DNA of 64,000 nucleotides from positions 1-64,000 of IMG/VR virus record IMGVR_UViG_3300027985_000661; one strand, given 5' to 3'. Every line of letters starts with the position of its first letter. Position 1 is the stretch's first letter. Source of the DNA: a virus. Below, piece after piece: positions 4,893-60,324 of this stretch. Under the pieces are notes generated by a model. The model saw only the letters and a list, made by a program, of their open reading frames with translations, searched no databases and was not told the origin of the DNA. The translations under genes and the position numbers were made by a program.

Positions 4893-5140
4893 TAATTAGA
4901 AACTGAAGCATAAGATACTTCAGCGACTAGCGTTTAAAGTTCTCTTATAGTAGGGACACGATAAACTTCACTAACCTAATAAAAGATGGAAGAGTGTTGG
5001 ATCAGGCAAATTATCTACTGCATAAGTTCTGCTCTTACCGCCTTAACCGAGTAAGACAATACTGAAGGAGCAGGAGGTCGAGCATTTAGCTCCCTCGTAG
5101 GGAATTCACAAACCATGGGGGGACAAGGGTTTTCTTTTTT
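4893..5140 (+). ncRNA. Candidate stand-alone structured ncRNA (about 250 nt)
   Basis: Has its own promoter motif, several stems (CTGAAG/CTTCAG, TTCTGCTCT/GGAGCAGGA, TCTTAC/GTAAGA, GAGC/GCTC) and a T-run at the end. No sizeable ORF (only a 22-codon one noticed). GC-richer than its flanks. Confidence 0.45.
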
Positions 5141-44453: not shown

Positions 44454-46523
44454 ATGGCAATTTCACGTTTCGATAGCCCTGCTGAAGCTCCAGTTATGAA
44501 CACTTATGTTCCTATTCCTTTTCAGGAATTGCAACAGGCGGCTTTAACAAGGCAACAAAGATTTGAAGAAGGTCTGGCAGCAGAAGAAGCCGTTGAGACC
44601 GAATTAGGCACTTTCTCAGGATTAGGGTCAGTATATTTACCACATAAGGGTAAAAGTGTAGCAGTAGGAGATAGAGATAGGGTATTAGAAAGGGTATCGC
44701 AATATAATAATCAGATAGACCAGTTAACTTCTAAATACCCTGATAAGTCTTCACCTGAATTTAGAACTGCTATTAGAAGTATAATAAGAAATATGCGAGC
44801 TGATAAGGCACCTACTGGATTATTTGGTAGGGCTGAGGCTACGACAGCAGCTTATAGAGACATACAAAAAAGGTTATCAGAAAATGAAGATTTGGCTACA
44901 AGTCCACATTTAGGGCAAGATATATACGCCGGCCTAGAGGATTTTGCAAATAAGTCTTTAAAAGAACAAGTAGATTTAGATATACCAGCATCTATAGGCA
45001 AACCTATGGATGTAGTCGGAGAGTTATCTGATCAGATTAAGAATATGAAAACCATGATAGGCGAGAACGCCTTTACTGAGGACGGTTATATAAAATCTGA
45101 GTATTTGGAAACACTTACTCCTGAAAGAATACAACAGGCCGCTATGGGAGTTATAAATTCTAGACCTGATTTACAAAGATATGTGGCTAGGGAAAGTCAG
45201 TATTACGGCAGAGATCCTCAAGAGGCTATCCAAGGATTAGCCAATACAATGGTTGATTTATTCCAAAAACAAGCGTACAAGAAAGATTTAAAAGGAGACC
45301 CTACTAACAAGGCTAATAAAAATAGATTATTATCTGGTATAGGAGAAGAGATAGCAGTAGCCGTTCCTGGGCAAGTGTATACTCCTAGGAAAGTAGAGGA
45401 TAATATAAAGGATCTTGGCAAATCCATACAGGATAAGGAAACTGAGATATCCCAGTTCAAACTGGATATGAATATACCACAAGGCTCTACTATAGGGGTA
45501 GATGAGTATGGTAATAAGAAAGACTTTGCATCTACCTTAGCTATTAAAAACAACGAGAAACAAAACATGCTGGATGAGAAGGCTAGGTTTGAAAAATTTA
45601 ATAGTTTAGCTAGGGAGCAGAGTGGCTGGACAGATGAATACTTATATACTAAATTAGAGGATCCTAAAGTTCAAGAAGAAGCTATTAAAGCAGCAGAAAA
45701 TGAATTTTACGCTTCCCTTAGATCTTTTAATCCTCATACAGGGGGTATAGATACTAAAAAGTATGAGTCCAAAGAACAAGAGAATGCAGAAAAAGAAGAC
45801 TATATAAATAATAATTGGCAACGTGTAGCTACTAATAAATTAAAGCAAGACGACACTAATTATAAAAAATATGAACAAGTACTACAAGGATTTGGAAATA
45901 CTTCTGCTGAAACTGCGGTTGTGTATCCTTTAACAAAGGAGTTAGTAGGTTCGGAAAATGTAGATTTTATAGAAGGTCTTGTTAATAAATATGGAACTTC
46001 TTTTGATATAGCAACTAAAGAAATAGTAAATACTAATACCGGATTGCCTATAGAAGATGAAGGGGAATGGAAAAAAATGAATTTTGAAAAAGCCAAATTC
46101 TTTGGGTACTTATTTGGACCAAGTGGGGAATTGAAACTGAATTATATAGTCCCTTCTAAAGATACAAATGGTGAGAATACTTCTATTGTAAGAAACGCCC
46201 CTAAAGGGTTAGAAAAAGCAGTATTAGAAGGCAATCAAGATTTCCTATTACAGAAAATAATAAAGGATCAAATATCTTATAATTTTAAAGATATAAGTGA
46301 AGATATGCAGCAAGATACTGTATATTTAGGTCTTGCAGGTCTTAAGAAAGAAATACCTGTTATAGGTCCAAACTTTAATAAAAGAAAAGGCAAATGGACA
46401 GCCGCTTATAAAATAGAAGGCGAAGAGGTGCCTTTAGAAATAGAAGCTGACAATAAAGAGGAATTAGTATCCAAGTTAGCTTTCGCTTATGAAATGGAAG
46501 CAAATAGTAAATATAATAAATAA
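44454..46523 (+). CDS. Putative ejected cargo protein
   Basis: MAISRFD...TYVPIPF N-terminus; lies between cargo 1 and the RNAP. Confidence 0.65.
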   Translation: MAISRFDSPAEAPVMNTYVPIPFQELQQAALTRQQRFEEGLAAEEAVETELGTFSGLGSVYLPHKGKSVAVGDRDRVLERVSQYNNQIDQLTSKYPDKSSPEFRTAIRSIIRNMRADKAPTGLFGRAEATTAAYRDIQKRLSENEDLATSPHLGQDIYAGLEDFANKSLKEQVDLDIPASIGKPMDVVGELSDQIKNMKTMIGENAFTEDGYIKSEYLETLTPERIQQAAMGVINSRPDLQRYVARESQYYGRDPQEAIQGLANTMVDLFQKQAYKKDLKGDPTNKANKNRLLSGIGEEIAVAVPGQVYTPRKVEDNIKDLGKSIQDKETEISQFKLDMNIPQGSTIGVDEYGNKKDFASTLAIKNNEKQNMLDEKARFEKFNSLAREQSGWTDEYLYTKLEDPKVQEEAIKAAENEFYASLRSFNPHTGGIDTKKYESKEQENAEKEDYINNNWQRVATNKLKQDDTNYKKYEQVLQGFGNTSAETAVVYPLTKELVGSENVDFIEGLVNKYGTSFDIATKEIVNTNTGLPIEDEGEWKKMNFEKAKFFGYLFGPSGELKLNYIVPSKDTNGENTSIVRNAPKGLEKAVLEGNQDFLLQKIIKDQISYNFKDISEDMQQDTVYLGLAGLKKEIPVIGPNFNKRKGKWTAAYKIEGEEVPLEIEADNKEELVSKLAFAYEMEANSKYNK

Positions 46524-46527
46524 CAAC

Positions 46528-49500
46528 ATGAGTAATAAACTTACTAACGAAAAATTACAGGTTTTATTAAATTCTAAAGTAGATCCGACGACGGGTTTAC
46601 AACAACCTGAGCGTAGTAGTAATCTTACAAATGAAGACTTAGCACGGGGGTTGAAGTACGCTTCACCCTCTTCTTTTTTAGGTGGTAAGGATTTGCAGCA
46701 AGACCCTACTAAATTTAATTTCGCTCTGAGGACAGATGCGGATAACCAAGAATTAAGGGCTCAAAACCAATCTTTTACACAACGTACTATGCATGGAGCT
46801 GGTAGGTTGATAGGAACTACTGTAACTAAGGCATTGTCAGGTCTAGGTTATGTAGGGTCTGGTATAGGAGCTTTAGCAAAAGGCGATATCAATGTCATGT
46901 TAGACAATGGGTGGTCTGCTGCTTTTAATGAGTTAGAAGAAGACATTAAAGAAGCACTTCCTATACACCATACTAGAAAATACTTAGAAGGAAATGTATG
47001 GGAGCAAATGGGTACATGGGGATTTTGGATGGACGATGTAGTAGACGGAGCAGCGTTTATGCTATCCTCTGCTATAGGAGCAAAGGGTCTAGACAAATTA
47101 GGTACCGCTACTAAAGTATACGGTAACCTTGCAAAAGCAGTATCTAAAGGACTTAGAGCTACTAAATTAGGTAAGGATATAGGTAAAACAAGTATCAGGT
47201 TAAAGAAAATAGCAGATGCGATGGATTTCGCTACTGTTACTGCTTATAATACTACAACAGAAGCTGCATTTGAAGCTAAGGATACTAAAGACCAAGTATT
47301 AAGATCTTTACAATCTAAAGTAGATAGGGGAGAAATATCTAAAGAAGAGGCTGATAAAATAGCTACAGGTGCTGCTAGAAATACATTTTGGTGGAACGCT
47401 GCTGCTATAGGACCGTCTAATGCTCTAGCTTTAGGCCAGATATTTAAAAAGTATGACTTTCTTAAGTTAGGTGCTAAAGGTACAGGACCTTTAAGTAAAA
47501 CACAAGTAGCTAGTATATTTGGCAAGAATGCTTTACTATCTGCTGCTTCTGAAGGGTTGTATGAAGAAAACATACAAAATGCTATTCAGTCTTATAATAC
47601 AGATGTTAATACTGGATTTGGACAGAATGGGGATTGGAAAGATCATTTAACAGGAGTATTAAGCAATGCTGCTAAAAACTTCACTACAGATGAAGGTCAA
47701 AAAGCAATGGCCTTAGGTGCTATTATAGGTCTAATACCAGGAGGTGTAGGTGGAGTAAGAAATGCCCAAGAATCTAATAAAAGAAATTCTATTTTAGCCA
47801 CTTCTAGAGGAGTACAGCTTAATTTACTTAAGCAAGGAATAGCTGATTTATACGAACGAGATAATGCAGGTAATGTTGTTCTAGATGAAAATAACAAAGC
47901 TAAACTAAACCTAGACAAAGTACAATCTGACTTTGCTAAATTGTACCAAGAACAGGCAGATCTAACCGCTATGTTAAAGGCCTCCAATTCTGGAAATGAA
48001 TTGATGGTAGATTTTCTAAAAGAACGCCAGGTACAAAGTGTGGCTAAACTACAAGCTGCTTCTAATTTAAATATTAATTCTTTTGAAGATTTCATAGATA
48101 CCTATGCTCAAAAAGAAATAGAAGAAGTAGGGGAAGAAAGTAGGGATGGAATAGAAGGCCAAGCTAAAGGCTATAAAGAAAGGGCTAAAGAATACTTCAA
48201 AATATATGATAGTATAACTAATAATTATGGTGGGTTATTTAATTTTGGAAATTCTAAAGAAGCTGTTGCTTTTAAAGAAAGCGTAATAGATTCACAATTT
48301 AATGAGGCCGCTACTCAATATTTTTGGGAAACTAAAAAGAAAGAGTTAGAGGAGTCTTTAAAAGTAGCAGAGGATTCTGCTAATGTATTGGATTTAGATA
48401 ATAAACTAAACGCATTAAAAAGGGAAAAAGGAGTAGAAGTAACTGAAGAAGAAGCTAAACTTCGCATAGCTCCAGAAGCGGCTAAACGTATAGAGTCTAC
48501 TAAGAAACGCATTAAAGAGATTGATAATATTCTATTAGAGTCCTATGAGAATATGAAAGATCTTCTTAATGAAGGTAAGCAAAAAGAAAGATTCGAAGAA
48601 GAAAAAAGACTTATCGAAAATTTCAAACAAGTTGTAGATGATGCAGTTCAGCAACAAAAAACTAATACTAGGAGCGAAGCAGATAAAACATCAACTAAAG
48701 ATAGAAGTGGTAAAGAAGTTAATCTTTCTAAGTTCTCCTACGAAGATGCTTTTAGACAAGGGTATGAAATAGACCAGCCTGCTACTGATATTAATAACAA
48801 ACTTAATAATATCACTCCTGGCGCTATTACAGCGTATTCTATTAAAAATGATGAAGCTAACCATAAACAAACTGTATTTACAAATGGAGATCCTAGTAAT
48901 GATGTATTAGGGGTATCGGATGTATTCTCTAGAAAGTTACAAAATATAAATACAGGCGAGGAAGTAGATGCTAATATAAGATTTAAAAATAATCAATTAG
49001 TAAATATAACTTATAAAGACACCAATAAAGGAGAGGAAGTTTCTTTTACTTTACCTACTAAAGAAGATGGTACTAAATATACACTAGATGACTTCAATGA
49101 AGTATTAGACTTAATCCCTGCTATATCTGCGTTTGAGGTTAAAGAAATAGAAGGTGAATATACATATTTAGGTAGAAAAAAAGTATCTGATTTTGATGCA
49201 TTGGCTAGTCAAACAAGACTAGAAATGAAAAGAGGTAATAGAGAAGTGCAACGTAGTATTTCAGACAAGGTCTCACAGATTAAAAGAGATATTGAAAATG
49301 GAATATCTAAAGGTTATGCTGACAGTAGGTACGGTAATACAACTTTTAAAGAACTGTTTAAAGATGCCGCTATACAGCATTACCCCGCTATTCATGCAGG
49401 TAAAGTAGGTATCCTTTCTTTGGAAGGAGGTAGTGTTATCTTTAAAGAAACTACTTTAGTACAAGATGACCTTAAGTTAGTTAAAAATATATCCGCTGTA

Positions 49501-52500
49501 GCTTCTATAGAGGACACTACAAAGTTAAGTGACCTTGAAATTTATATAGCTAAAGATATACCATTTAATATTAGTATAGAAGAATCTGGAAGTACATATA
49601 AAATACAGGATAAATTATATACAAATAGGCTTGTAAATAAAATAGATGCTGTAGAAGAAGATAGTAAAGGTAATCCAATATCTGTAACTCTTACAAATGA
49701 GTTAGGAGAAAATATAAAATTCACTACTCCTAATATAGTAGACAGTATAGCTAGTAATTTACTGCTGTTTGAGATGGGCAAGGATAAAACTATTATAGAT
49801 TTATTCGGTACAGATTATTCTGACTTTGTTGTAATTAGAAAAGAAAATACTAAATACCCTGAGAATTACACAGTATATAGAAAAGGAGGTAGGTACACAA
49901 TTTATACAGAAAGAGGTACCTTAGTTAAACCTCACTTTAAAAATTATAAAACTATAGCATTTCAAGTAGATAATGAAATTTCTAAATTGGCTATTGCTTA
50001 CGCCGATAAATTAAAGTATAACTATAATAAAAAAGAAGTTAAAGATGAACTCACTAGACTTACTAGGATTTTTAACTCCCCAACAACAGGAGAGGCTCTT
50101 AAGTACCCCACTAAATCAGAGGTACTCGCTACTGAAAGAGTGGAGAGACCAAAAGGAGAATTAAAAGAAAAAGAAGAGCAGGATATAGTAAATAGCTCTA
50201 TAGAAGATGACGCTATATCTGAAAGTGCTTTAGAGCAGAGAGAAGGGCAGAAGGCTGTAATTGCAGAGGAAGCTACAACTGATGATCTAATTAAACTAAC
50301 CGATAGTATAGAACCTATAGAGCCAAGTGAGGTAGAAGATAGGCAATATGAGAATGAGGTTTTATCTAGAGGTGTAAGACATACAGCTAGTGCTATAGGC
50401 TATGTAGCTAATATAGACGGGCAGCCTAGACCTATTAATGAAGAGTTTGGTAAGTATGTAATTAATCAAAATATCAAGGGAGATTATGTTACTCCTGATT
50501 TGGATATGGAGAATGATTGGTGGAATACCGACCAAGATTACTCAATAGAAGATAAGCAGAAAGTTAAAGATGCTATAAAAAAAGGATTAACAGCCGAGCA
50601 AATAGATAGGTTATTAGATTCTAAAAAACCAGGGTTTACAAATTGGGTAGATTCATTACCTATTAAAATAGAGTATGGTGAATTTGATTACGGCATTTAT
50701 ATGCATAGGTCAGATTATCCTCATATTAGAGTACCTAAAGATATAGAGTACGCTAACTATAAAAATAACGGTGAATATCTAGATGCTATAGACAAATATA
50801 AGAATAAAATAAAGTCTCAAACAAAAGCGGCTAGGTATAAAATAATAGAATCCCTACTTAAAGGTAATGTTGTTAACATTCCTGTGGAAGGTAAATCTAT
50901 GGGTACACCTAACAATATAGGAAATAAAAGAAATCTAGCAGAGGTATTAACCAAGATAGAGTCTAATATAGATCTTAGAGAGGTTACTTTAGGAGTAGCT
51001 ACTAAAGATGGGTCTATTGATAAAGGCAATGGAAGAAAAATGGTAGGTAAGGGTAGTCAAGGGAATATATTCTTAGAGACTTCTTATACTGCTAATGGTG
51101 AGGTAGGGAACTTTAAATTAAATCCTGGATATTTATCTCAAGAGCATGCTATTATTGTGTTAGAGACATTACAGCAAGCTTACGATCGTAAAAGTGGAGG
51201 ATTTAAAGGTAAGTACGAAGGTAAAGGAGTTACAGGTGATTTAACAAGATCTCAGATTTTAAAACTTCTTGTAGTATATGGGGAAGATAATACTAAAGTA
51301 GAAAATGACCCTAATAAACAGCATTTAAAAGAAAAACAACTTTGGGTAAAAAATGCTAGAATACTACATTATGGTACTAAGACTATGCCTTTACATAATC
51401 CAAGTAAAGAGCAGCTATCTGATTTTATAACTTGGGCAACTACTAAGAAAACATACGCTATTAATAGGGATCAACTTAATACAGGTGTTTATAATAAAGA
51501 CTTTACAATTGGTAATATAAAGTTCATTAAAGGTAAGGACAACTATAATAGCATGGTATTAAAGTCAGGTATGGTTCTTACAGATTTAGATGTAGTAGAA
51601 GGTACTAAATCTTTAACTAAAGATCCTGCTGTAATAATGGACTTAGAAGCTGCCGGAATTTCATATAGCGAAGTTATACCTACTAAAAAGAATGAGGTAG
51701 TACCTAAAGAAAGTAAGGTAGTACACACCTCTCCTAAAAAGGTAGCTAACGAGGTTAAACCTAAAGTTACAGAGGCTTCCGAATCTTCATCTGATGAGGT
51801 TAAACAAAAAGTTACTAAAAGAAGAAAAAATGCAGCAGGAGGTGTAGCAGGAGATAAGTTAGGAAACTTTACTAAAATTACTTCCATAGGAGTAGGAGGT
51901 AGTGTATATTTAGAAATAGAAAACGAGGAGGGTGATATATCTAAGAGAGTACTAGGAACAGTTGAACAAGACGAAGAAGGTCTATATTTTAGTTTAAAAG
52001 GAGTTGGTGCCGAATTCATTATTGTAGATAACGCCTTTAAGTCAGAAGGCGGGGATATCAGTTTGAATGATGCTAAAGCTTTCCAACGTATTAATGCTAA
52101 AGTTGGCATATTTAGTCATATGTTTAAGTATGATTCTCCTGGTATATCTGAGAGTAAAGTAGAAGAGTTAGAAAATAAAACTGCTGATATACAAGCGGAA
52201 ACTCCAGAGGTAAAAGTAGTTAATCCGCCATCTCAGGAGCAATCTAATCCTTCCCCTACTAAAGCTTTCAAAAATACAGGTAAGACAGGGTTACATCAGT
52301 TAGGTAGAAGTCCATTTAAAATGGCTACTAAAAAGCCAGGTACTTATACTTTAGCGGATCTCCAAAAGGAAACAAAATGGATTAAAGATAGATTTTCAGA
52401 TGTTGAAGTAGATATAATAGATAATTTTATAGAGTTGGCCGGAGATAGAAGAGCTATGGGGCAATCTAGAAGAGATTCTATTTTATTAGCTACAATGGCT

Positions 52501-55500
52501 GAGGCTGGTACAGCATACCACGAAGCTTTCCACCGTGTATCTCTTTTTTACTTAACAGATGAAGAAAGACAAGGTATATATAATGAAGCTAAATCTATAT
52601 ACCCAGGCTTAGAAAATAAGAAGGACTCAGAGATAGAAGAATTTTTAGCAGAGCGTTTCCGTAATTTTATTATAAGAGAGCAAGATAAACGTAATTCTAA
52701 AAAGAGTTGGGGAGCTAAAATATGGGATGCATTTAAAAAGATATGGAATGCTATTTCAAATTTATGGATTAAGCCGAGTAGATTTGATGAATTGACCTTG
52801 GATAGATTATTTAGTGATATAGAGCAAGGAAGGTATAAAAGAACTAAGATAGATCCTACTAAATATAAAGACTTAACTGATACAAGTGTAAACTCTGTAG
52901 TTAAAGGATTTGAATTAAAAGGGACTAGGCTTTATTCTATACAGACTGAACAACAACTTAAAGAAGTTGTGCAATCTATGTTTTATACTTTAGCTGAAAC
53001 CAATTTACTTGTTCAATACGATGAGGAGACAGGTGAACGCACCTTAGGCCTAAGTTCTGTAGAGGATCTTAAAGATATAAAATACGGTCCAATGTTTGAA
53101 GCTATAGAACAGGAGTATAACGATGCCTTATCTATAGGTGAAAGTAATGAAGCTTTCTTATTAGAAATACCCACAGCTACGCCCTCTAGACTTCGTGAAA
53201 TTAGAGAACAAGCTTTTGGAGATCCTAATTTCCAAGGAGATTTACAAGCAGAATTAAGACAGCAAGCGGATAGTGCATTTAATATAGGACTTATTTATGA
53301 AGAAATTTTAGACCATAGTGAAGTATTTACAGAGGTATTGGAAGATTACCTTAATGGTCTTAATATTAGAACTGTAAATAAAGATACCGATATAGATTTA
53401 GACGAATCCCCTGATGAATTAGATGGAAGTACTAGATCAGATTTTGATAAGTATAATAAGATAGCGTTCGAGTCATCGGCTAAACACAATGTAGCAGCCA
53501 ATATCAAGTTATTATTATCTATTCTCCCTGCTTCTAATGAACGTAGTGAATTGACTGGGTTATATACATTTGCAGAATTTGGGCAGCTAATGTCTAAGAT
53601 ATATAGAGATCTTAGAGGTATTAGAGACGCGCAATCTATGATGGATAAACTTGTAGAATTATCAGAAGGTAATATTACCTATTCTGTTCTTGTTAAGCAT
53701 TTAAATAAAGACGAAACACTTAAAACACAGTTCTTTAGAACAGTTAATAAAAATGCTCTTGACTTTGTAAATGCCTTAGTATCAGTAGAAGATGGTAAGC
53801 CTAGGATTACTTTTGGAGCATCTGCTATACAAACAGCAGGGGCAAGGAAGTTAAAAGAATGGAACAATTCTTTGATAAGATCTGGTTTATTTAAACATAG
53901 TAGAGGTGGTGAACCTATCCCTAATATCGAAGCCTTTAATAAATTACAAAATAAATTTATTGATCTATATGATAATATTAAATTTCAGGTAGATAGAAAG
54001 AAGAGTATTAATAATTTAGAAGAATTAAAAACTGATCTTATTTCTATTTTAAATGAAGCTGGTATTGAAATAGATATTAAAGGATTAGAATTAGCTTTAT
54101 CAGATATTAACGATATTCAATCAGAAGCTTTATTAGATTTAATTCAAGGAAGTGAGACATTTAAATCTCCTATATATTATATATTAGGTAAAGAGGGAAG
54201 TTTAGATAAACTTTTTAGAAGTAAAAACGGCACTTATAAAAATGATAAAGGAAAGTTTATCAATTTTGAAAATGTCTACACAGATGAAAAAGGAGCCAAA
54301 TACTTATCTAATAAACAAGCTGAAACTAACCCTTATGAAGAGGGAGATTCTATATTCGGAGCTGGTGGAAACAGGTATTACACTATTATGCAGCACACCT
54401 ATACTAGTAATACTTTTAATGAGTTTGCTAAGAATCCTGAGGTTATAGAAGCTAAATTAAATGCTGTATATAATAAAAATAGTAGATTTCTTAATGCTTT
54501 GAAAGACGACCCTAAATTGGCAGAGATAGTAGGCATGAAGACTATGGCCGCTATAGTTAGGGAGGATGAATATGATACTGGTAGAGAGTACCAAGGAATT
54601 ACTGAATTAGAGGATTATTTGCTTCGTATAGCCGCAAATGAGAAAGGACTATTCACACCCCCTACTCCTGCGGATCGTAGATTTTACGCTTTCTATCAAG
54701 GTTTTAATGACCTTAAATTAGATGGTACTATGGATACAGAAGGCAATATTAATGAGGAAGTATTAGAAGTATTTTCAGATTACGTTAAAGACGAAGAGGC
54801 CCGCATGAGAGTTGTAAGGGCAGATATAGACAAAGTTATCAAGGGACAACGCGATTCCTCTACTTTATTCGAAAATTACCATTATAAATATTTTGGAGCA
54901 GGCGAGACTGTACAAGAAGGGCAAGTGGTTATTGAGGGAAATGATATAGTTCCTGTAGGGAAGAAAGTTAAAAATGGAGGTAAGTTACTTAAGCGGAATA
55001 ATAAATATGTAGGAGGCGGAGCTAACTATACCAACTTTGCATCTTTTAACAACAATACACCTACTAATGTAAAGCAGGCATTACAGAGTATTATAAGAGA
55101 TCGTTTAAATGATGAAATTAAATACATTACAGACTTAGGAATTGTAGAATCAGAATTAGATAACGGGAATTATAGAATTACTAAGAATTTACTTTTGGAC
55201 GACGGTATGTTAGATCGTTATAAGAAAGAATTAGTAACAGAAGACGAAGAGTATGCTGCCGAGAATATAGTATTAGACAATTTAATTAATACTATGATGG
55301 CCAGCATTGAGACAGGTAAACTTATTACTGGTGACCCTGCTTCGTATAAATCTCCTGAAGATCATGTTAAACGTCTTCCTGGCTATACCTCTACTGGGGA
55401 TAATACACGGAATGACTTCCCTGCTGAATATTATACAGATAGTCCATTAGTGCATTCTAATAAATATAATGTAACTACTTTCACAAGTAAAATAATAGAA

Positions 55501-56816
55501 TCTACATATTACGATACTTTGTTAGATATACATACTAATGCACTTATATCTGAGGGGGTAGTAGCTAATAAAAATGAGGCTAGATCTATAGCAAAATTAA
55601 AATTGGAAGCTTATTTAAATGTAGATCAAACAGATGCTCAAACTTTTATTACACCTGAAATGTACAGGGCTGTTGCTATCAAATTAGGTGAATGGAATAA
55701 TGTAAAAGAACAAGCATATCAGCAGATATTAAATGGAGAGGGTAGTAATATGACAACTAAAGACGTTGTTTTCCAACCTCTTAAAATGACATATGTAAAT
55801 GTACAATATGTGGATGGCCATGCTATAGCAAAATTCGATAAAATGTCTATGGCTACTTTATTTAGAGCGGATATTAAAGGCACTAAAATGGAGAAGTTGT
55901 TAGATAGAATGGAAGCTGTAGGAGAGTTCAAAGGTCTAGAACCTATACACCAAGTTAAATTCCACACTGCTGAAAAAGTAGGGGGTAGAGATAGAAAAGA
56001 GATATTCCAAGATAATGGTGAATTTGTAGAACTATCTGAGCTTAACTACTACGATCAGGACTTTGATATGCTTAGGTTACAGCTTGTAACAGATCCCCAT
56101 GAAGTTAATGAAACTTTAGTAGGTTCTCAGTTTAAGAAAGTGGGTATGTCTAATGTTAAGTTAACCGAGACATACGGTAACGGTAAAACAGGGGCCGAAA
56201 TAGTAGAGGAAATAAATAGTATGCTTTCTGAATTATCGAATAGAGGTAAAGATTCCTTATCTGAGGAATTCAATCTAGATAAAAGTAATAAGATAGTAGA
56301 TAAGCAAGTATTTATGGATAAATTAAAAGAAGAAGGTAAAAAAGCAGGGATGCCTGATTATATACTTGATACTTTTAAATTGAATGAAAATGGAGATTAT
56401 TACGTAGAACCTGACGCTCATCCTGGTAATAGAAAATGGATACAGAATAGGGTGTTGTCTATAATTAAGAAGGCTACTATTGATTTGAAACTTCCAGGCA
56501 ATGTATTTATTCAAATGTCTAATATAGGTATAGCTAAGGATAAAGAACTTAGGCTTATGGATGAAGAAGGATACATAGAAGCTAAAATATCTGTAAGTGT
56601 ATTTAAAAATATGATACCTTCATATAATACTAAAACACATGCAGAAAGAGTTGAATTCTTGCGTTCTAGACCCGACATCACTGCTATGGCATATAGGATA
56701 CCTACTCAAGGACAGAACTCGACATTCGGTCTTAAAGTGGTTGATTTCTTAGATGAGAGAGTGGGAGATGTTATAGTATTGCCTGCTGAAGGTACTGCTG
56801 TTGGAGGTTTTGACTT
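46528..56816 (+). CDS. Giant virion RNA polymerase, exon 1 (includes a zincin HEAFH module)
   Basis: TDAQ.F, K...K, YRIPTQG motif and GGFDF at the exon end; HEAFH at 52519. ATG 46528 follows the upstream stop (the track start is 46489). Confidence 0.9.
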
Positions 56817-56847
56817 TAATTATAGAGTCACTGCGTAGAAATACGCT

Positions 56848-56876
56848 GAAACCTTTCAAATATATCAATCGTATAA
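56848..56876 (+). promoter_or_regulatory. ECF-sigma-like promoter inside the intron, upstream of the HNH gene
   Basis: tGAAAC-N17-CGTATAA; the motif ends 18 nt before the HNH ATG. Confidence 0.65.
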
Positions 56877-56894
56877 CCACATAAAGGTTATACA

Positions 56895-57389
56895 ATGGAA
56901 AAAGAAATATTTAATAATTATAGTATATCGAATACCGGAATTATAAAAAGTAAATTTACCGGTAAAGAAATGAAACAATATATAAGTAATGTAGGATATT
57001 CTGCGGTTAGACTTACAATAGAAAAAGGAAAAACAAAATTATTCCACGTACATGTTTTAATCGCAATTGCTTTTTTAGATTATAGTTTAAGTAGTAATTT
57101 AGTTGTAGATCATAAAAATAATATAAGGACAGATAATAGATTAGAGAATTTACAATTAGTAACTAGAAGATTAAATAATACTAAAGAATTTACAGGGAAA
57201 GTAAAATATCCAGGAGTACATATAGAAAAAGGAAGAAGGCATTATAGAGCTCGGATAAAAAATAAAGATAAGTATTTATCATTAGGTTCCTACTTAGATC
57301 CTAAGGATGCATACAGAGCTTATATGAAATCTTTAAAAGAAATAGATATACAGGCTTATAATTATTATAAAGATATATTTGGAGAATAA
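56895..57389 (+). CDS. Intron-encoded HNH homing endonuclease (NUMOD4-like/HNH/AP2-like)
   Basis: YSISNTG.I, VH.LIA.AF, VDHKNNIRTDNRLENL...N, C-terminal YPGV...YRARI...LG.Y...AY.AY. Confidence 0.9.
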   Translation: MEKEIFNNYSISNTGIIKSKFTGKEMKQYISNVGYSAVRLTIEKGKTKLFHVHVLIAIAFLDYSLSSNLVVDHKNNIRTDNRLENLQLVTRRLNNTKEFTGKVKYPGVHIEKGRRHYRARIKNKDKYLSLGSYLDPKDAYRAYMKSLKEIDIQAYNYYKDIFGE

Positions 57390-57644
57390 ATAACTCCTTT
57401 AATTGCTGGGAACTCCTATAATAGAGTATAGGGCAATCAGCAGCCAAGCTTCGAAAGAAGAAGGTTCAACGACTAGTCCGGCACGTTAAAAAGTGCGGTA
57501 GAAGGACGTACATCCAAGTGGATGGAAATGGGGAGCACCTTACTAGATAATGCTAAAGGTGAAGATATAGTCTAGTCTGTATGGTAACATACAGCAGTTC
57601 ATAAGAGAACGGGTACAGATTAACGACCTGTATTGAATATTACG

Positions 57645-60324
57645 TGACATTGATAAATTGTATTTTATACGCCATAATTATACCAAAGATGGATATAAGA
57701 TAGAGTACTTAACTGATGACAATTCTACTCTTGAAGAAAGAATGGAGGCGTATGCAGAAGAAGTATTAAAAGATAGATTTAAAGATATTAAAAGAAAGTA
57801 TAAAGGTGAAGAAATAGATAAGAGGATTAAACTTGAAATACTTAATTGGAAAAACAATAATAGAATTAGTTTTGAAAAAAGAAGTATTAAAGCTCAAAAT
57901 ACTAAAGAAGCTGTACAGAATAGGTTATTAGATATGTATTTTGATATTTATAGGGATAGTAAGCATGCTGCACATAGAACTCAACCTTTAGGATATGGAG
58001 CCGACCAATTGAAAAAGCTTGCAAAAGATATAAGAAAATGGAATGGTACTATAAGAACTGATAAAGAAGGAAATGTAATAGAAACAGACGTTGAATCACT
58101 TAAATCTACTACTCCAGTATTTAACTTAGATGTTAAAGCTAGGTATAAATTAGGTAAAGCTTTAGGTTCTTATGCTCTTTCTAACGTTCACCATGCTTTA
58201 GGTCAGACAGTAGGACTTTCCCTTAACCAGAATATAGGATCTGGAAACCTAAATGAATTTGGAAATACCAGTCTTGCAGGATTATTAGGTAGGGATAATG
58301 AGTATATAATGGAGTGGTTCTCTGCTCTTATTGATGCTCACGTTGATATAGCAGCCGATCCTTTCATTTACTTCTTAAATGCCAATGATTATACAGTTAA
58401 AGAACTTTCGTTACTATTAAGAGCCGGTGTTGGCGGTATTAAGACGTTTAAATTTATAGCCCAACCTATACTGTCTTCTATTGCAAAAGAAGTAGAAAAT
58501 GCTAAAAATAATATAGGTCTTGATATTCGAATTGCCGATGTTGTAGCTTCAATTAGAAAGAAATATGAAGCACAAGCTAGAAAACATGGAGTTTCGTATG
58601 TAGAGTATAACCCCTCTATAGATAATTTCGATTCTATATTAAATGAAGCAGAATTAGAAGATGCTTTTAAAGAATCTGCAAAAGAGAATCCAAAAGGAAG
58701 TTTTTACGTACAACAATTAAGGGTATTAGATGCTTTCCAAAGTATATCCTTACCTGCCCAGATGCTATCAGAAGCTGTAATGGCTAGTAGGATTGATACT
58801 AAGAAATTTGGTACATCGTTCTCAGAGGTAGAGAATTATACTATTAGAGTACAGAAAGCTTTAGATGACGAGGCAAAAGGAGCGGGAATTCAAGGTTTCA
58901 AGAAGTTTATTGAAGATACTTATTTAGGTGCCTATACCAACAATAGTATAGATCTATCTTATGGTATGTTATCTAATATATCTTTAGAGACCAAGCCTGC
59001 TTTTCGTAAAGCTGTTAGAAATATCTTAACAAGTGTAAATAAGAGGTATACTGCAAGTGAGAAACTAATAAAGACAGTATCTGATGAGATATATACTAAC
59101 CTTACTGCTGCTTATTTTAAAGAAAAAGGTATACTTGAAGAAAGTATGATCAAATCGCTTATATATGGAAATAACAGTATTCCTAAAAGAGTAGAGGATA
59201 TAAAAAATGGCAGTATTAAAGGATTTGAGAAGTATAAAGACTCAGGATTACTTTCTAAATTAGTACCTTACTATAAGCAGGATGCTCCTGATATGTTAAT
59301 ATTTAATAAGCCTGATGATAAGTATGAAAAGGATTCGTTAGTTAGATCTTGGAAAGATATGGCAAACAGTACTAATCCAGATGTTAGAGCTTTTGCACAA
59401 GATTTATTCTACTACTCCTATTTAACTAGTGGTTTTAAAAATACTCTTAATTCATTTTACGATCTCGCCCCTAGAGAATTATTAATAGATGAGGGCTATA
59501 ATGAGTTTATTAAAGAATATTTTAGTAAACTTAACGATCCTGATTATTTTGATATGTTCTTAGATGAATTCTACTTAAATAGTTGGAATAATAGTGAGTT
59601 AGTACCTGAAATTAAGGATAAGAGTATTAAAAGTAAGAAAAGTGCTAGTAAAGGAGGTACATACATGCTATTTACTGATAATATTTCTTTTTATGTAGGT
59701 AAGAATAATAAAGGCCAGTCTATTTATAGACCTTATATTAAGTATAAAGGGCCTGAAGGTTTAGAACTATATAAGTATACAGGTACTATATCAGAAAGAG
59801 GCAAAGAATTTGCAATTTATTATAGGGTAGAAAAGAAAGGTTATAATAAGAATGGATTTGTCGTAAAAGAGAATTTAACTAAAGGTACAATATTCTCTTC
59901 TAATAGGACTGGATTACCTGATAGCGTTACTAAATATCTAAACCCTACTAATATATCTTCTATAGCGAATGCTAAAAATAAAGACGGTATTAAAATATTC
60001 GATTTCCTAAGTAAGGCAGATTTCGTTAATATTGAGGATATGGTAGTGTCCCAATATAAAAATGATATAAGGGATTTCGATTCAGAAACACAGGCTAAAA
60101 TAAACAGAATTAGACCTTTAGATTTGACCGATGAAGCCACTAAATTATTTAGTACCCAAGAGATTGTGACTACTAGTTTAGATATACAAAAAGGTTTCTA
60201 TACTTTGAATAATAATAAAATTGTATTTATTGATAAAATAGAAGAAGATTCTTATTTGGTTGAACAGTGGGGATACCAAACACCTACTTCTGAACAGATA
60301 GATGCTAATATGAAAGAATGTTAA
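57645..60324 (+). CDS. Giant virion RNA polymerase, exon 2
   Basis: Begins T-GAC-ATT-GAT-AAA-TTG (DIDKL), in frame with track ORF 57658..60324; contains QNRLLD and HVDIAADP. Confidence 0.9.

What the first reader, a model, noticed from the sequence alone, without database searches (positions are those of the whole stretch)
56812..57660. Group I intron splits the RNAP catalytic motif D-F-D-I-D inside the Phe codon
Exon 1 ends ...GAC TT (56816) and exon 2 starts T GAC ATT GAT AAA (57645). The internal guide pairs with both exons (AGAGTC with GACTTT; GTCA with TGAC). Unspliced RNA stops at TAG 56838 and lacks two of the three Asp residues of the motif, so active virion RNAP depends on splicing. 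ORF callers report two unrelated genes here. Introns are known in crAss-like phages, but this one can be resolved to the nucleotide at the active site.
Basis: partly seen in the sequence, partly recalled or inferred. Interest (0 to 1): 0.75.

Follow-up and report, generated by a model that had tools for sequence, protein, structure and literature searches.

The report
Group I intron splitting phage RNA polymerase
A self-splicing group I intron carrying its own homing nuclease gene sits in the codons for the catalytic site of a crAss-like phage's virion RNA polymerase; this is a clear new example of a well-known kind of mobile element, not a new mechanism.

Summary
Window 56817-57644 (828 nt) is a group I intron: Rfam RF00028 scores 95.1 bits (cut-off 50, E 1e-26). 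P1 puts a U56816·G56825 wobble at the 5' splice site, G57644 is the terminal guanosine, and the P3-P9.2 core is backed by covariation. An I-HmuI-like HNH homing endonuclease ORF (56895-57389) lies between P2 and P3.

The host gene is the crAss-like virion RNA polymerase (matches phi14:2 gp66, PDB 6VR4). Joining exon 1 (to 56816) to exon 2 (from 57645) gives GGFDFDIDKLYF. In phi14:2, cr50_1 and cr10_1 the two exon matches lie exactly one codon apart. An intron-less relative (L088) has the predicted 20-nt junction sequence as continuous DNA.

The DFDID codons are a recurrent intron target:
- Two relatives appear to be broken at the same site (protein evidence only).
- Seven gut crAss-like contigs carry LAGLIDADG or ORF-less group I-type introns 4 nt downstream.

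Introns in crAss-like phages, and an endonuclease-bearing intron in a phage RNAP subunit gene (PhiPA3), are already published. Splicing itself remains untested, because no RNA data exist. The scan had already flagged this same stretch in an overlapping window.

The parts
46489..56816 (+). Exon 1 of the virion RNA polymerase gene. It ends with GAC TT: the first Asp and two bases of the Phe codon of DFDID.
   Evidence: ORF 46489..56838. Matches PDB 6VR4 phi14:2 gp66, E 7.7e-38. The database gene call P0003 starts 13 codons later.
56812..56829 (+). P1 hairpin: 56812-56818 pairs with 56823-56829. The 5' splice site lies after U56816, which is wobble-paired to G56825. The internal guide sequence AGAGUC is 56824-56829.
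   Evidence: Sequence; unconstrained MFE fold.
56833..56846 (+). P2 hairpin GCGUA-GAAA-UACGC (GNRA loop). It contains the TAG (56836-56838) that ends the unspliced exon-1 frame.
56871..56893 (+). 8-bp hairpin directly upstream of the endonuclease start codon. It may occlude the start of translation.
   Evidence: MFE and centroid fold. The function is inferred only.
56895..57389 (+). Intron ORF of 164 aa: an I-HmuI-like HNH homing endonuclease (HNH_3 domain, with weak NUMOD4 and AP2-like matches).
   Evidence: Pfam HNH_3 1.8e-11; PHROG HNH families down to 6.6e-24; PDB 1U3E I-HmuI, E 9.4e-12.
57394..57634 (+). Ribozyme core:
- P3 57394-99/57530-35
- P4 57404-09/57437-42
- P5 57414-20/57427-33
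- P6 57443-45/57463-65 and 57448-51/57457-60
- P7 57471-75/57568-72 (pseudoknot)
- P7.1 57478-84/57493-98
- P7.2 57511-15/57520-24
- P8 57536-41/57556-61
- P9 57577-83/57588-94
- P9.1 57597-600/57607-10
- P9.2 57612-18/57628-34
   Evidence: Rfam RF00028 hit 57348-57594, 95.1 bits; fold; helix coordinates; covariation across six introns.
57644..57644 (+). Terminal guanosine (omega-G). The 3' splice site lies after it.
   Evidence: Sequence. It is the only G that gives an in-frame junction restoring DFDID.
57645..60324 (+). Exon 2 of the RNA polymerase gene. It starts T GAC ATT GAT AAA: the last base of Phe, then Asp-Ile-Asp-Lys.
   Evidence: The gene call P0123 starts only at TTG 57658, after the two Asp codons.

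Best explanation
Window 56817-57644 is a mobile group I intron. P7.1/P7.2 point to subgroup IA. It is inserted after the second base of the Phe codon in the DFDID metal-binding motif of a roughly 4,320-4,335-aa crAss-like virion RNA polymerase.

Shown here:
- A full ribozyme core is present.
- P1 has a U·G wobble at the 5' splice site.
- A terminal G precedes exon 2.
- An intact HNH endonuclease ORF is present.
- Joining the exons gives exactly the motif found in intron-less homologues.

Inferred:
- In the late pre-mRNA, an exogenous guanosine attacks after U56816.
- The freed 3'-OH then attacks after G57644, and the exons are ligated to GGTTTTGACTTTGACATTGATAAA.
- Only the spliced mRNA yields a polymerase with all three catalytic aspartates. 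Every virion therefore depends on splicing for the enzyme that starts the next infection.
- The I-HmuI-like HNH enzyme nicks or cuts intron-less alleles near the DFDID codons during co-infection, and repair copies the intron in (homing).
- Sitting in the least mutable codons of an essential gene protects the intron from imprecise deletion.
For: - **Ribozyme.** RF00028 scores 95.1 bits against a 50-bit cut-off, covering model positions 1-253.
- **Folds.** Unconstrained folds recover P1 with U56816·G56825, P2, and P3-P9.2.
- **Covariation.** On six related introns, 83% of cells pair, against 34-44% when partners are slid. 31 pairs show changes on both sides, against 1-7 when slid. P7 is invariant, and P9.2 is kept through three different sequences.
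- **Host gene.** It matches 6VR4 gp66.
- **Junction, protein level.** In phi14:2, cr50_1 and cr10_1 the exon-1 and exon-2 tblastn matches are separated by exactly 3 nt. The spliced peptide is GGFDFDIDKLYF, against GSDFDIDK[ML] in those phages.
- **Junction, DNA level.** The intron-less relative L088 carries TTTGACTTTGACATTGATAA as continuous DNA.
- **Length.** The closest intron-less homologue, P0004, is 4323 aa, matching exon 1 plus exon 2.
- **Motif.** All three Asp of DFDID are essential in gp66.
- **Endonuclease.** The ORF matches I-HmuI with the DH...N...N region aligned.
- **Not an assembly artefact.** One 19,452-nt contig at depth about 965 spans the locus without differences.
Against: - No RNA data exist, so splicing is not observed; no RNA holder was listed.
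- No intron-less allele of this same phage was seen, so mobility is not shown.
- P10 is at best 2 bp.
- Rfam's fast 'gathering' filters missed the hit on the whole window, although the score is far above the cut-off.
That evidence is from proteins only.
Confidence: 0.9

Rival explanations
1. The polymerase is truly made as two polypeptides, a split subunit like the split beta' of cyanobacteria or archaeal A'/A''. The intervening DNA would be a free-standing HNH gene plus a decayed intron remnant that no longer splices.
For: Gene callers give two ORFs. Yutin et al. 2021 describe fragmented RNAP ORFs in some crAss-like phages.
Against: - The break falls inside the five-residue metal-binding loop.
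- The downstream ORF has no start codon upstream of the D-I-D codons; the first start is TTG 57658.
- The ribozyme scores 95 bits over its full length, with intact P7 and terminal G.
- The exon ends abut to the codon in homologues.
Confidence: 0.04
2. The gene is a pseudogene in a defective or dead-end genome: the intron was inserted and is tolerated only in a non-viable metagenomic variant.
For: Only metagenomic DNA is available, with no isolate and no RNA.
Against: - Both exons are long open frames of about 3,443 and 892 codons without stops.
- The record is a complete 96.4-kb genome with terminal repeats.
- The locus sits in a contig at depth about 965.
- Relatives at about 50% identity appear to keep an intron at the same site with open exons.
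Confidence: 0.03
3. The insertion is another kind of intervening element, removed by another route: a group II intron, an intein, or bypassing/frameshifting.
For: Yutin et al. 2021 suspected 'yet unknown expression mechanisms' for disruptions in the DxDxD motif of Zeta-group phages.
Against: - Stop codons in the exon frame exclude an intein.
- The only Rfam family above its cut-off is group I.
- P1 with U·G and the terminal G fit group I rules exactly.
Confidence: 0.01

Closest known systems
Group I introns of crAss-like phages (Yutin et al. 2021, Nat Commun 12:1044, PMC7886860)
   Same: - Same virus order.
- Group I introns with endonuclease ORFs in core genes.
- Their Fig. 3 legend shows a LAGLIDADG intron ORF in the transcription gene block.
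- They noted disruptions inside the DxDxD motif.
   Different: - Their text lists MCP, PolB, primase and ATPase as typical targets in gut Delta/Zeta phages, and leaves the DxDxD disruptions unexplained.
- Here the phage is environmental (the metagenome label of the holder runs is hydrothermal vent), the endonuclease is HNH, and the junction is resolved to the nucleotide.
Site-C introns in gut crAss-like RNAP genes (IMG/VR loci L018, L023, L030, L083, L035, L044, L081)
   Same: - Same gene and same motif.
- P1 with a U·G wobble and a terminal G.
- Closely similar P3-P4 core sequence.
- L044 scores 64.6 bits and L023 47.1 bits on RF00028.
   Different: - Inserted 4 nt downstream (DFD^ID, phase 0).
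- They carry a LAGLIDADG ORF (927-969 nt) or no ORF (262-292 nt), not an HNH ORF.
- Their 3' domain is shorter, without P9.1/P9.2.
PhiPA3 intron in an RNA polymerase subunit gene (Birkholz et al. 2024, Science 385:105, as summarised in PMC12908238)
   Same: A phage intron in an RNA polymerase subunit gene that encodes a homing endonuclease. That endonuclease nicks the intron-less virion RNAP (vRNAP) gene of the co-infecting phage PhiKZ.
   Different: - Multisubunit RNAP of a nucleus-forming jumbo phage, not the single-chain crAss-type enzyme.
- No sequence comparison was made here.
- A competitive role for the present intron is only a hypothesis.
SPO1 DNA polymerase intron with I-HmuI (PDB 1U3E); Acinetobacter phage DNA polymerase introns (L087)
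   Same: - The endonuclease matches I-HmuI (E 9.4e-12).
- The intron's P7-P9.2 3' domain is about 90% identical over 77 nt to the intron that splits the DNA polymerase of Acinetobacter phage vB_Ab_02_KEN_01. The P8 and P9.2 helices are kept through compensatory changes.
   Different: - Different host gene.
- In the Acinetobacter intron the ORF sits in the P6 loop; here it lies between P2 and P3.

Membership tests
Group I intron (Rfam RF00028) | Conserved P3-P9 catalytic core scoring above the curated cut-off | tested here: met
   95.1 bits against 50, model positions 1-253, E 1.1e-26.
Group I intron (Rfam RF00028) | P1 helix between the 5' exon end and the internal guide, with a U·G wobble at the splice site | tested here: met
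   56812-56818/56823-56829, with U56816·G56825.
Group I intron (Rfam RF00028) | Terminal guanosine immediately before the 3' exon | tested here: met
   G57644 precedes exon 2. It gives the only in-frame junction.
Group I intron (Rfam RF00028) | P3/P7 pseudoknot with the conserved guanosine-binding helix P7 | tested here: met
   GACUA 57471-75 pairs with UAGUC 57568-72. All five pairs are invariant in six related introns, so there is no covariation to test.
Group I intron (Rfam RF00028) | Helices supported by compensatory changes in relatives | tested here: met
   31 of 60 pairs have changes on both sides, against 1-7 for slid controls; 0 of 500 shuffles reach this. Only six sequences were used, and the structure was derived from one of them.
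Group I intron (Rfam RF00028) | P10 pairing between the guide and the 3' exon | tested here: not met
Only U57645-A56824 and G57646·U56823 can form. P10 helps 3' exon alignment but does not define the family.
Group I intron (Rfam RF00028) | Guanosine-dependent self-splicing that ligates the exons | not testable with these tools
   No RNA run holds the locus. An in vitro assay is needed.
Subgroup IA | Extra hairpins P7.1/P7.2 between P7 and P3' | tested here: met
   A 51-nt insertion relative to the Rfam consensus folds into two hairpins, 57478-98 and 57511-24. The subgroup assignment rests on general knowledge of the IA class.
HNH homing endonuclease (I-HmuI type) | HNH_3 catalytic domain with the DH...N...N residues | tested here: met
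   Pfam PF13392 scores 43.9 bits against a 24.8-bit cut-off. The alignment to 1U3E covers VVDHKNN...N.
HNH homing endonuclease (I-HmuI type) | Cleaves or nicks the intron-less allele and promotes homing | not testable with these tools
   A candidate target exists: the 20-nt junction sequence is intact in L088. No intron-less allele of this phage was found.
crAss-like virion RNA polymerase (gp66 family) | Sequence homology to phi14:2 gp66 and the DFDID motif at the homologous place | tested here: met
   6VR4 E 7.7e-38. The motif aligns after splicing.

The most novel reading that the evidence does not exclude
The 15 nt that encode DFDID in Crassvirales virion RNAP genes may be a multi-site homing hot spot, invaded independently by unrelated endonuclease lineages.

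- An HNH intron sits in the Phe codon (this phage and apparently two relatives).
- LAGLIDADG and ORF-less introns sit 4 nt downstream (seven gut contigs).
- Truncated proteins hint at further sites after the first Asp and after Phe.

Such introns could account for at least part of the 'unknown expression mechanism' invoked for DxDxD disruptions in Zeta-group crAss-like phages. Their endonucleases could also act as weapons between co-infecting crAss-like phages by cutting the rival's virion RNAP gene, as shown for PhiPA3 against PhiKZ.
Probability: 0.3. Interest if true: 0.55.

Novelty: new member of a known kind. Interest (0 to 1): 0.35.

Why it matters
- **Annotation.** Two 'unrelated' ORFs plus an HNH gene are in fact one roughly 4,330-aa virion RNA polymerase. 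The two catalytic Asp codons at 57646-57654 lie in no called gene.
- **Biology.** The enzyme that must be packaged to start the next infection depends on RNA self-splicing. The most conserved codons of the Crassvirales RNAP attract introns at more than one position.
- **Open question.** This offers a simple, testable explanation for some of the DxDxD-motif disruptions that the literature left open.

It does not reveal a new mechanism. Active-site targeting by endonuclease-bearing group I introns is textbook phage biology.

Tried and rejected
- **Rfam 'gathering' scan of the whole window.** It found nothing. This was a filter artefact, because the E-value mode finds the 95-bit hit.
- **Pfam and PHROGs on the exon ends.** No family matched. 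The PDB sequence search gave the identification instead. Exon 2 alone has no PDB sequence match.
- **The look-up of encoding contigs.** The same-site introns in relatives and the possible extra sites rest on protein ends only.
- **The search for related loci with the single protein.** No relatives were found; the alignment query was needed.
- **Pattern search in IMG/VR** for the intron's 3' domain followed by GAYATHGAYAA: 0 hits.
- **Metagenome scan.** All 80 loci had uninterrupted DFD[IV]D.
- **Sequencing runs.** No RNA holder was listed. Laying contigs gave no joint and no intron-less allele. The short partial hits are conserved cores of other introns in the samples.
- **blastn of the intron against its own genome.** Only a 20-nt core match turned up, at 78212-78231.
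- **Canonical P10.** Considered and rejected (see observation check).
- **Intein.** Rejected because of stops in the exon frame.
Full report
**1. Observation**

- The long + strand frame that starts at 46489 reads ...GGA GGT TTT GAC TT up to 56816. It runs on through TAAT TAT AGA GTC ACT GCG to TAG at 56836-56838.
- After G57644 the sequence reads T GAC ATT GAT AAA TTG TAT, and that frame stays open to 60324.
- Removing 56817-57644 (828 nt) gives GGTTTTGACTTTGACATTGATAAA, which translates to G-F-D-F-D-I-D-K.
- The protein database holds the two parts as separate gene calls: P0003 (3436 aa) and P0123 (888 aa, starting at TTG 57658). The two Asp codons at 57646-57654 therefore lie in no called gene.

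**2. The insert is a group I intron**

- A whole-window Rfam scan with the fast 'gathering' filters found nothing.
- The same library with E-value filters gives RF00028 at 57348-57594. The score is 95.1 bits against a cut-off of 50, it covers the full model, and E is 5e-25 to 1e-26.
- An unconstrained fold of 56806-56900 gives P1 (56812-56818 with 56823-56829), with the last exon base U56816 opposite G56825. It also gives P2 (56833-56846, GAAA loop), which contains the stop codon of the unspliced frame.
- The fold of 57386-57650 gives P3, P4, P5, P6, P7.1, P7.2, P8, P9, P9.1 and P9.2. P7 (GACUA 57471-75 with UAGUC 57568-72) completes the pseudoknot.
- I aligned the core with five related introns: three ORF-less introns from gut crAss-like RNAP genes, one from crAss phage cr116_1, and part of one from an Acinetobacter phage DNA polymerase gene.
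  - 83% of cells pair, against 34-44% when the partners are slid.
  - 31 of 60 pairs show changes on both sides, against 1-7 when slid.
  - P7 is invariant.
  - P9.2 is kept through three different sequences.
  - The sample is small and the structure came from one of the rows, so this is support added to the Rfam score, not a test that stands on its own.
- P7.1 and P7.2 point to subgroup IA. That assignment rests on general knowledge of the class.

**3. Exact junction**

- Three features together fix the cut at 56816|57645: the U·G wobble in P1, the terminal G57644, and the reading frame. Cutting one base later on both sides would give the same mRNA, because 56817 and 57645 are both T.
- Independent support comes from homologues. 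In phi14:2, cr50_1 and cr10_1 the tblastn match of exon 1's end and that of exon 2's start are separated by exactly 3 nt, the split Phe codon. The peptides read GSDFDIDK[ML], against GGFDFDIDKL here.
- The closest intron-less relative with DNA in hand is L088 (46% identity). It carries TTTGACTTTGACATTGATAA as continuous DNA, identical to the predicted ligated sequence. It is therefore also a candidate homing site.
- The closest intron-less protein, P0004, is 4323 aa. Exon 1 plus exon 2 gives 4335 aa from ATG 46489, or 4322 aa from the start used by the database call.

**4. Host gene**

- The last 805 residues of exon 1 match chain A of PDB 6VR4, the virion RNA polymerase gp66 of Cellulophaga phage phi14:2 (E 7.7e-38).
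- In gp66 the motif 1361-DFDID-1365 is the catalytic site, and changing any of its aspartates to alanine abolishes RNA synthesis (bioRxiv 10.1101/2020.03.07.982082).
- The unspliced exon-1 product keeps only the first Asp.
- Exon 2 has no start codon upstream of the other two.
- The genome is a complete 96,402-bp record with direct terminal repeats.
- The runs that hold it are labelled hydrothermal vent metagenome.
- One 19,452-nt contig at depth about 965 spans the whole locus without differences, so the intron is not an assembly artefact.

**5. Intron ORF**

- 56895-57389 encodes 164 aa with an HNH_3 domain (1.8e-11), plus weak NUMOD4 and AP2-like matches.
- It matches PHROG HNH endonuclease families.
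- It matches I-HmuI, the nicking homing endonuclease of the SPO1 DNA polymerase intron (PDB 1U3E, E 9.4e-12), with the DH...N...N region aligned.
- Its best phage relatives, at about 35% identity, are in Polaribacter and Flavobacterium phages. This fits a Bacteroidota host.
- The ORF lies between P2 and P3. In the related Acinetobacter intron the ORF sits in P6.
- An 8-bp hairpin (56871-56893) ends two bases before the ATG. Whether it controls translation was not tested.

**6.

- GUCA (56827-56830) is complementary to UGAC (57645-57648). However, three of those guide bases are already paired with the 5' exon in P1, and they lie 3' of the wobble G.
- The canonical P10 partner lies 5' of the wobble G.
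- The complementarity follows from GAC occurring in both exons.
- A canonical P10 here would have two pairs at most.

**7. Census of the motif in relatives**

| Source | Loci or proteins examined | Uninterrupted D[FY]D[IV]D | Interrupted |
|---|---|---|---|
| IMG/VR viral contigs | 80 | 73 | 7, after DFD |
| Metagenome contigs | 80 | 80 | 0 |
| Protein database, listed hits | 120 (12 read in full) | not tallied | P0009 and P0011 at the window's site; others below |

- **Site C (DNA evidence).** In the seven interrupted IMG/VR loci, exon 1 ends ...GAC TTY GAT and exon 2 starts ATT GAY AAR, 4 nt downstream of the window's site. Each has its own P1 with a U·G wobble and a terminal G.
  - Four carry a LAGLIDADG ORF (927-969 nt).
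  - Three have no ORF (262-292 nt).
  - Two reach Rfam E-values of 4e-14 and 7e-9.
- **Same site as the window (protein evidence).** P0009 and P0011, about 50% identical, end GGFDF followed by ...RVTA* or ...RVAV*. This is the same read-through as here (NYRVTA*, where RV is the guide AGAGUC).
- **Possible further sites (protein evidence only).** P0045 and P0058 end right after the first Asp. Other short forms begin MFDIDK or MDIDK.

**8. Comparison with what is known**

- Yutin et al. [quoted passage not shown] They also noted disruptions 'within ... the DxDxD motif' of Zeta-group RNAPs, for which they suspected unknown expression mechanisms (repeated in the review PMC10136315).
- An endonuclease-bearing intron in an RNA polymerase subunit gene is known in phage PhiPA3. 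Its endonuclease nicks the virion RNAP gene of the rival phage PhiKZ (Birkholz et al. 2024, as summarised in PMC12908238).
- Insertion at active-site codons of essential genes is the classic pattern for phage group I introns (same review).
- The present element is therefore a new, cleanly resolved member of a known kind. What it adds is the nucleotide-level junction in an environmental crAss-like phage and the evidence that the DFDID codons are hit at more than one position by different endonuclease families.

**9. Verdict**

- Splicing and homing are inferred.
- The scan had already flagged this same stretch in an overlapping window.

Noticed in passing
L018, L023, L030, L083 (927-969 nt) and L035, L044, L081 (262-292 nt); introns start about 4964-4985 in each locus: Seven IMG/VR crAss-like contigs, most from one large IMG/VR dataset whose other members match human-gut crAss phages, have an intervening sequence between the second Asp and the Ile codon of DFDID, 4 nt downstream of the window's site. 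Two of them (L044, L023) match the Rfam group I model. Four carry a LAGLIDADG ORF and three have no ORF.
   Followed up: partly
proteins P0045, P0058 (C-termini) and P0128, P0131, P0133, P0134, P0143, P0148 (N-termini): Truncated RNAP pieces end right after the first Asp (TGAD..., TGSD...) or begin MFDIDK or MDIDK. This hints at further insertion sites inside the motif. The DNA could not be fetched.
   Followed up: no
window 56871-56893: An 8-bp hairpin (UAUAACC...GGUUAUA) ends two bases before the HNH start codon and covers an AAGG. It may occlude translation initiation in the precursor, as described for T4 intron endonucleases.
   Followed up: partly
window 56806-56811 with 56848-56853: The MFE fold pairs exon bases GGUUUU, just upstream of P1, with GAAACC just after P2. 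This closes a three-way junction around P1 and P2. It could be an extension of exon-intron pairing or a chance pairing.
   Followed up: no
L087 (Acinetobacter phage vB_Ab_02_KEN_01, locus 1311-2084) and L086 (crAss phage cr116_1, locus about 2400-2635): The 3' domain of the window's intron (P7 strand to P9.2) is 80-96% identical over 50-130 nt to two other introns. One splits the DNA polymerase of 41-kb Acinetobacter phages. The other lies next to a 'mobile intron protein' gene in cr116_1. So the same ribozyme lineage occurs in unrelated phages and in different genes.
   Followed up: partly
G000:C1:77409-77556 (-) and 78212-78231 (-), beyond the window's end: A weak RF00028 hit (25.3 bits, below the cut-off) and a 20-nt match to the P3-P4 segment lie in the region where another first-stage note places polA introns. 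The genome seems to hold several group I introns that Rfam's filters barely see.
   Followed up: no
window 1-64000: Technical point: the default Rfam 'gathering' scan of the whole window returned nothing, although the intron scores 95 bits. Introns with large ORF or peripheral insertions can be lost by the speed filters.
   Followed up: yes
L025 about 4640; L080 and L082 about 5030: In-frame stop codons occur inside otherwise conserved RNAP sequence in some IMG/VR crAss contigs (DEFTT*TGSDFDID where relatives have Q; NYD* where relatives have E). This would fit stop-codon reassignment.
   Followed up: no
window 57966-58116 and 58123-58200: Two 151-nt contigs identical to exon 2 occur at depth about 2 in a sediment run and a freshwater run (X4, X5). 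The two runs' tables are identical and may be one data set. This hints that the phage or a very close relative occurs outside the source sample.
   Followed up: no
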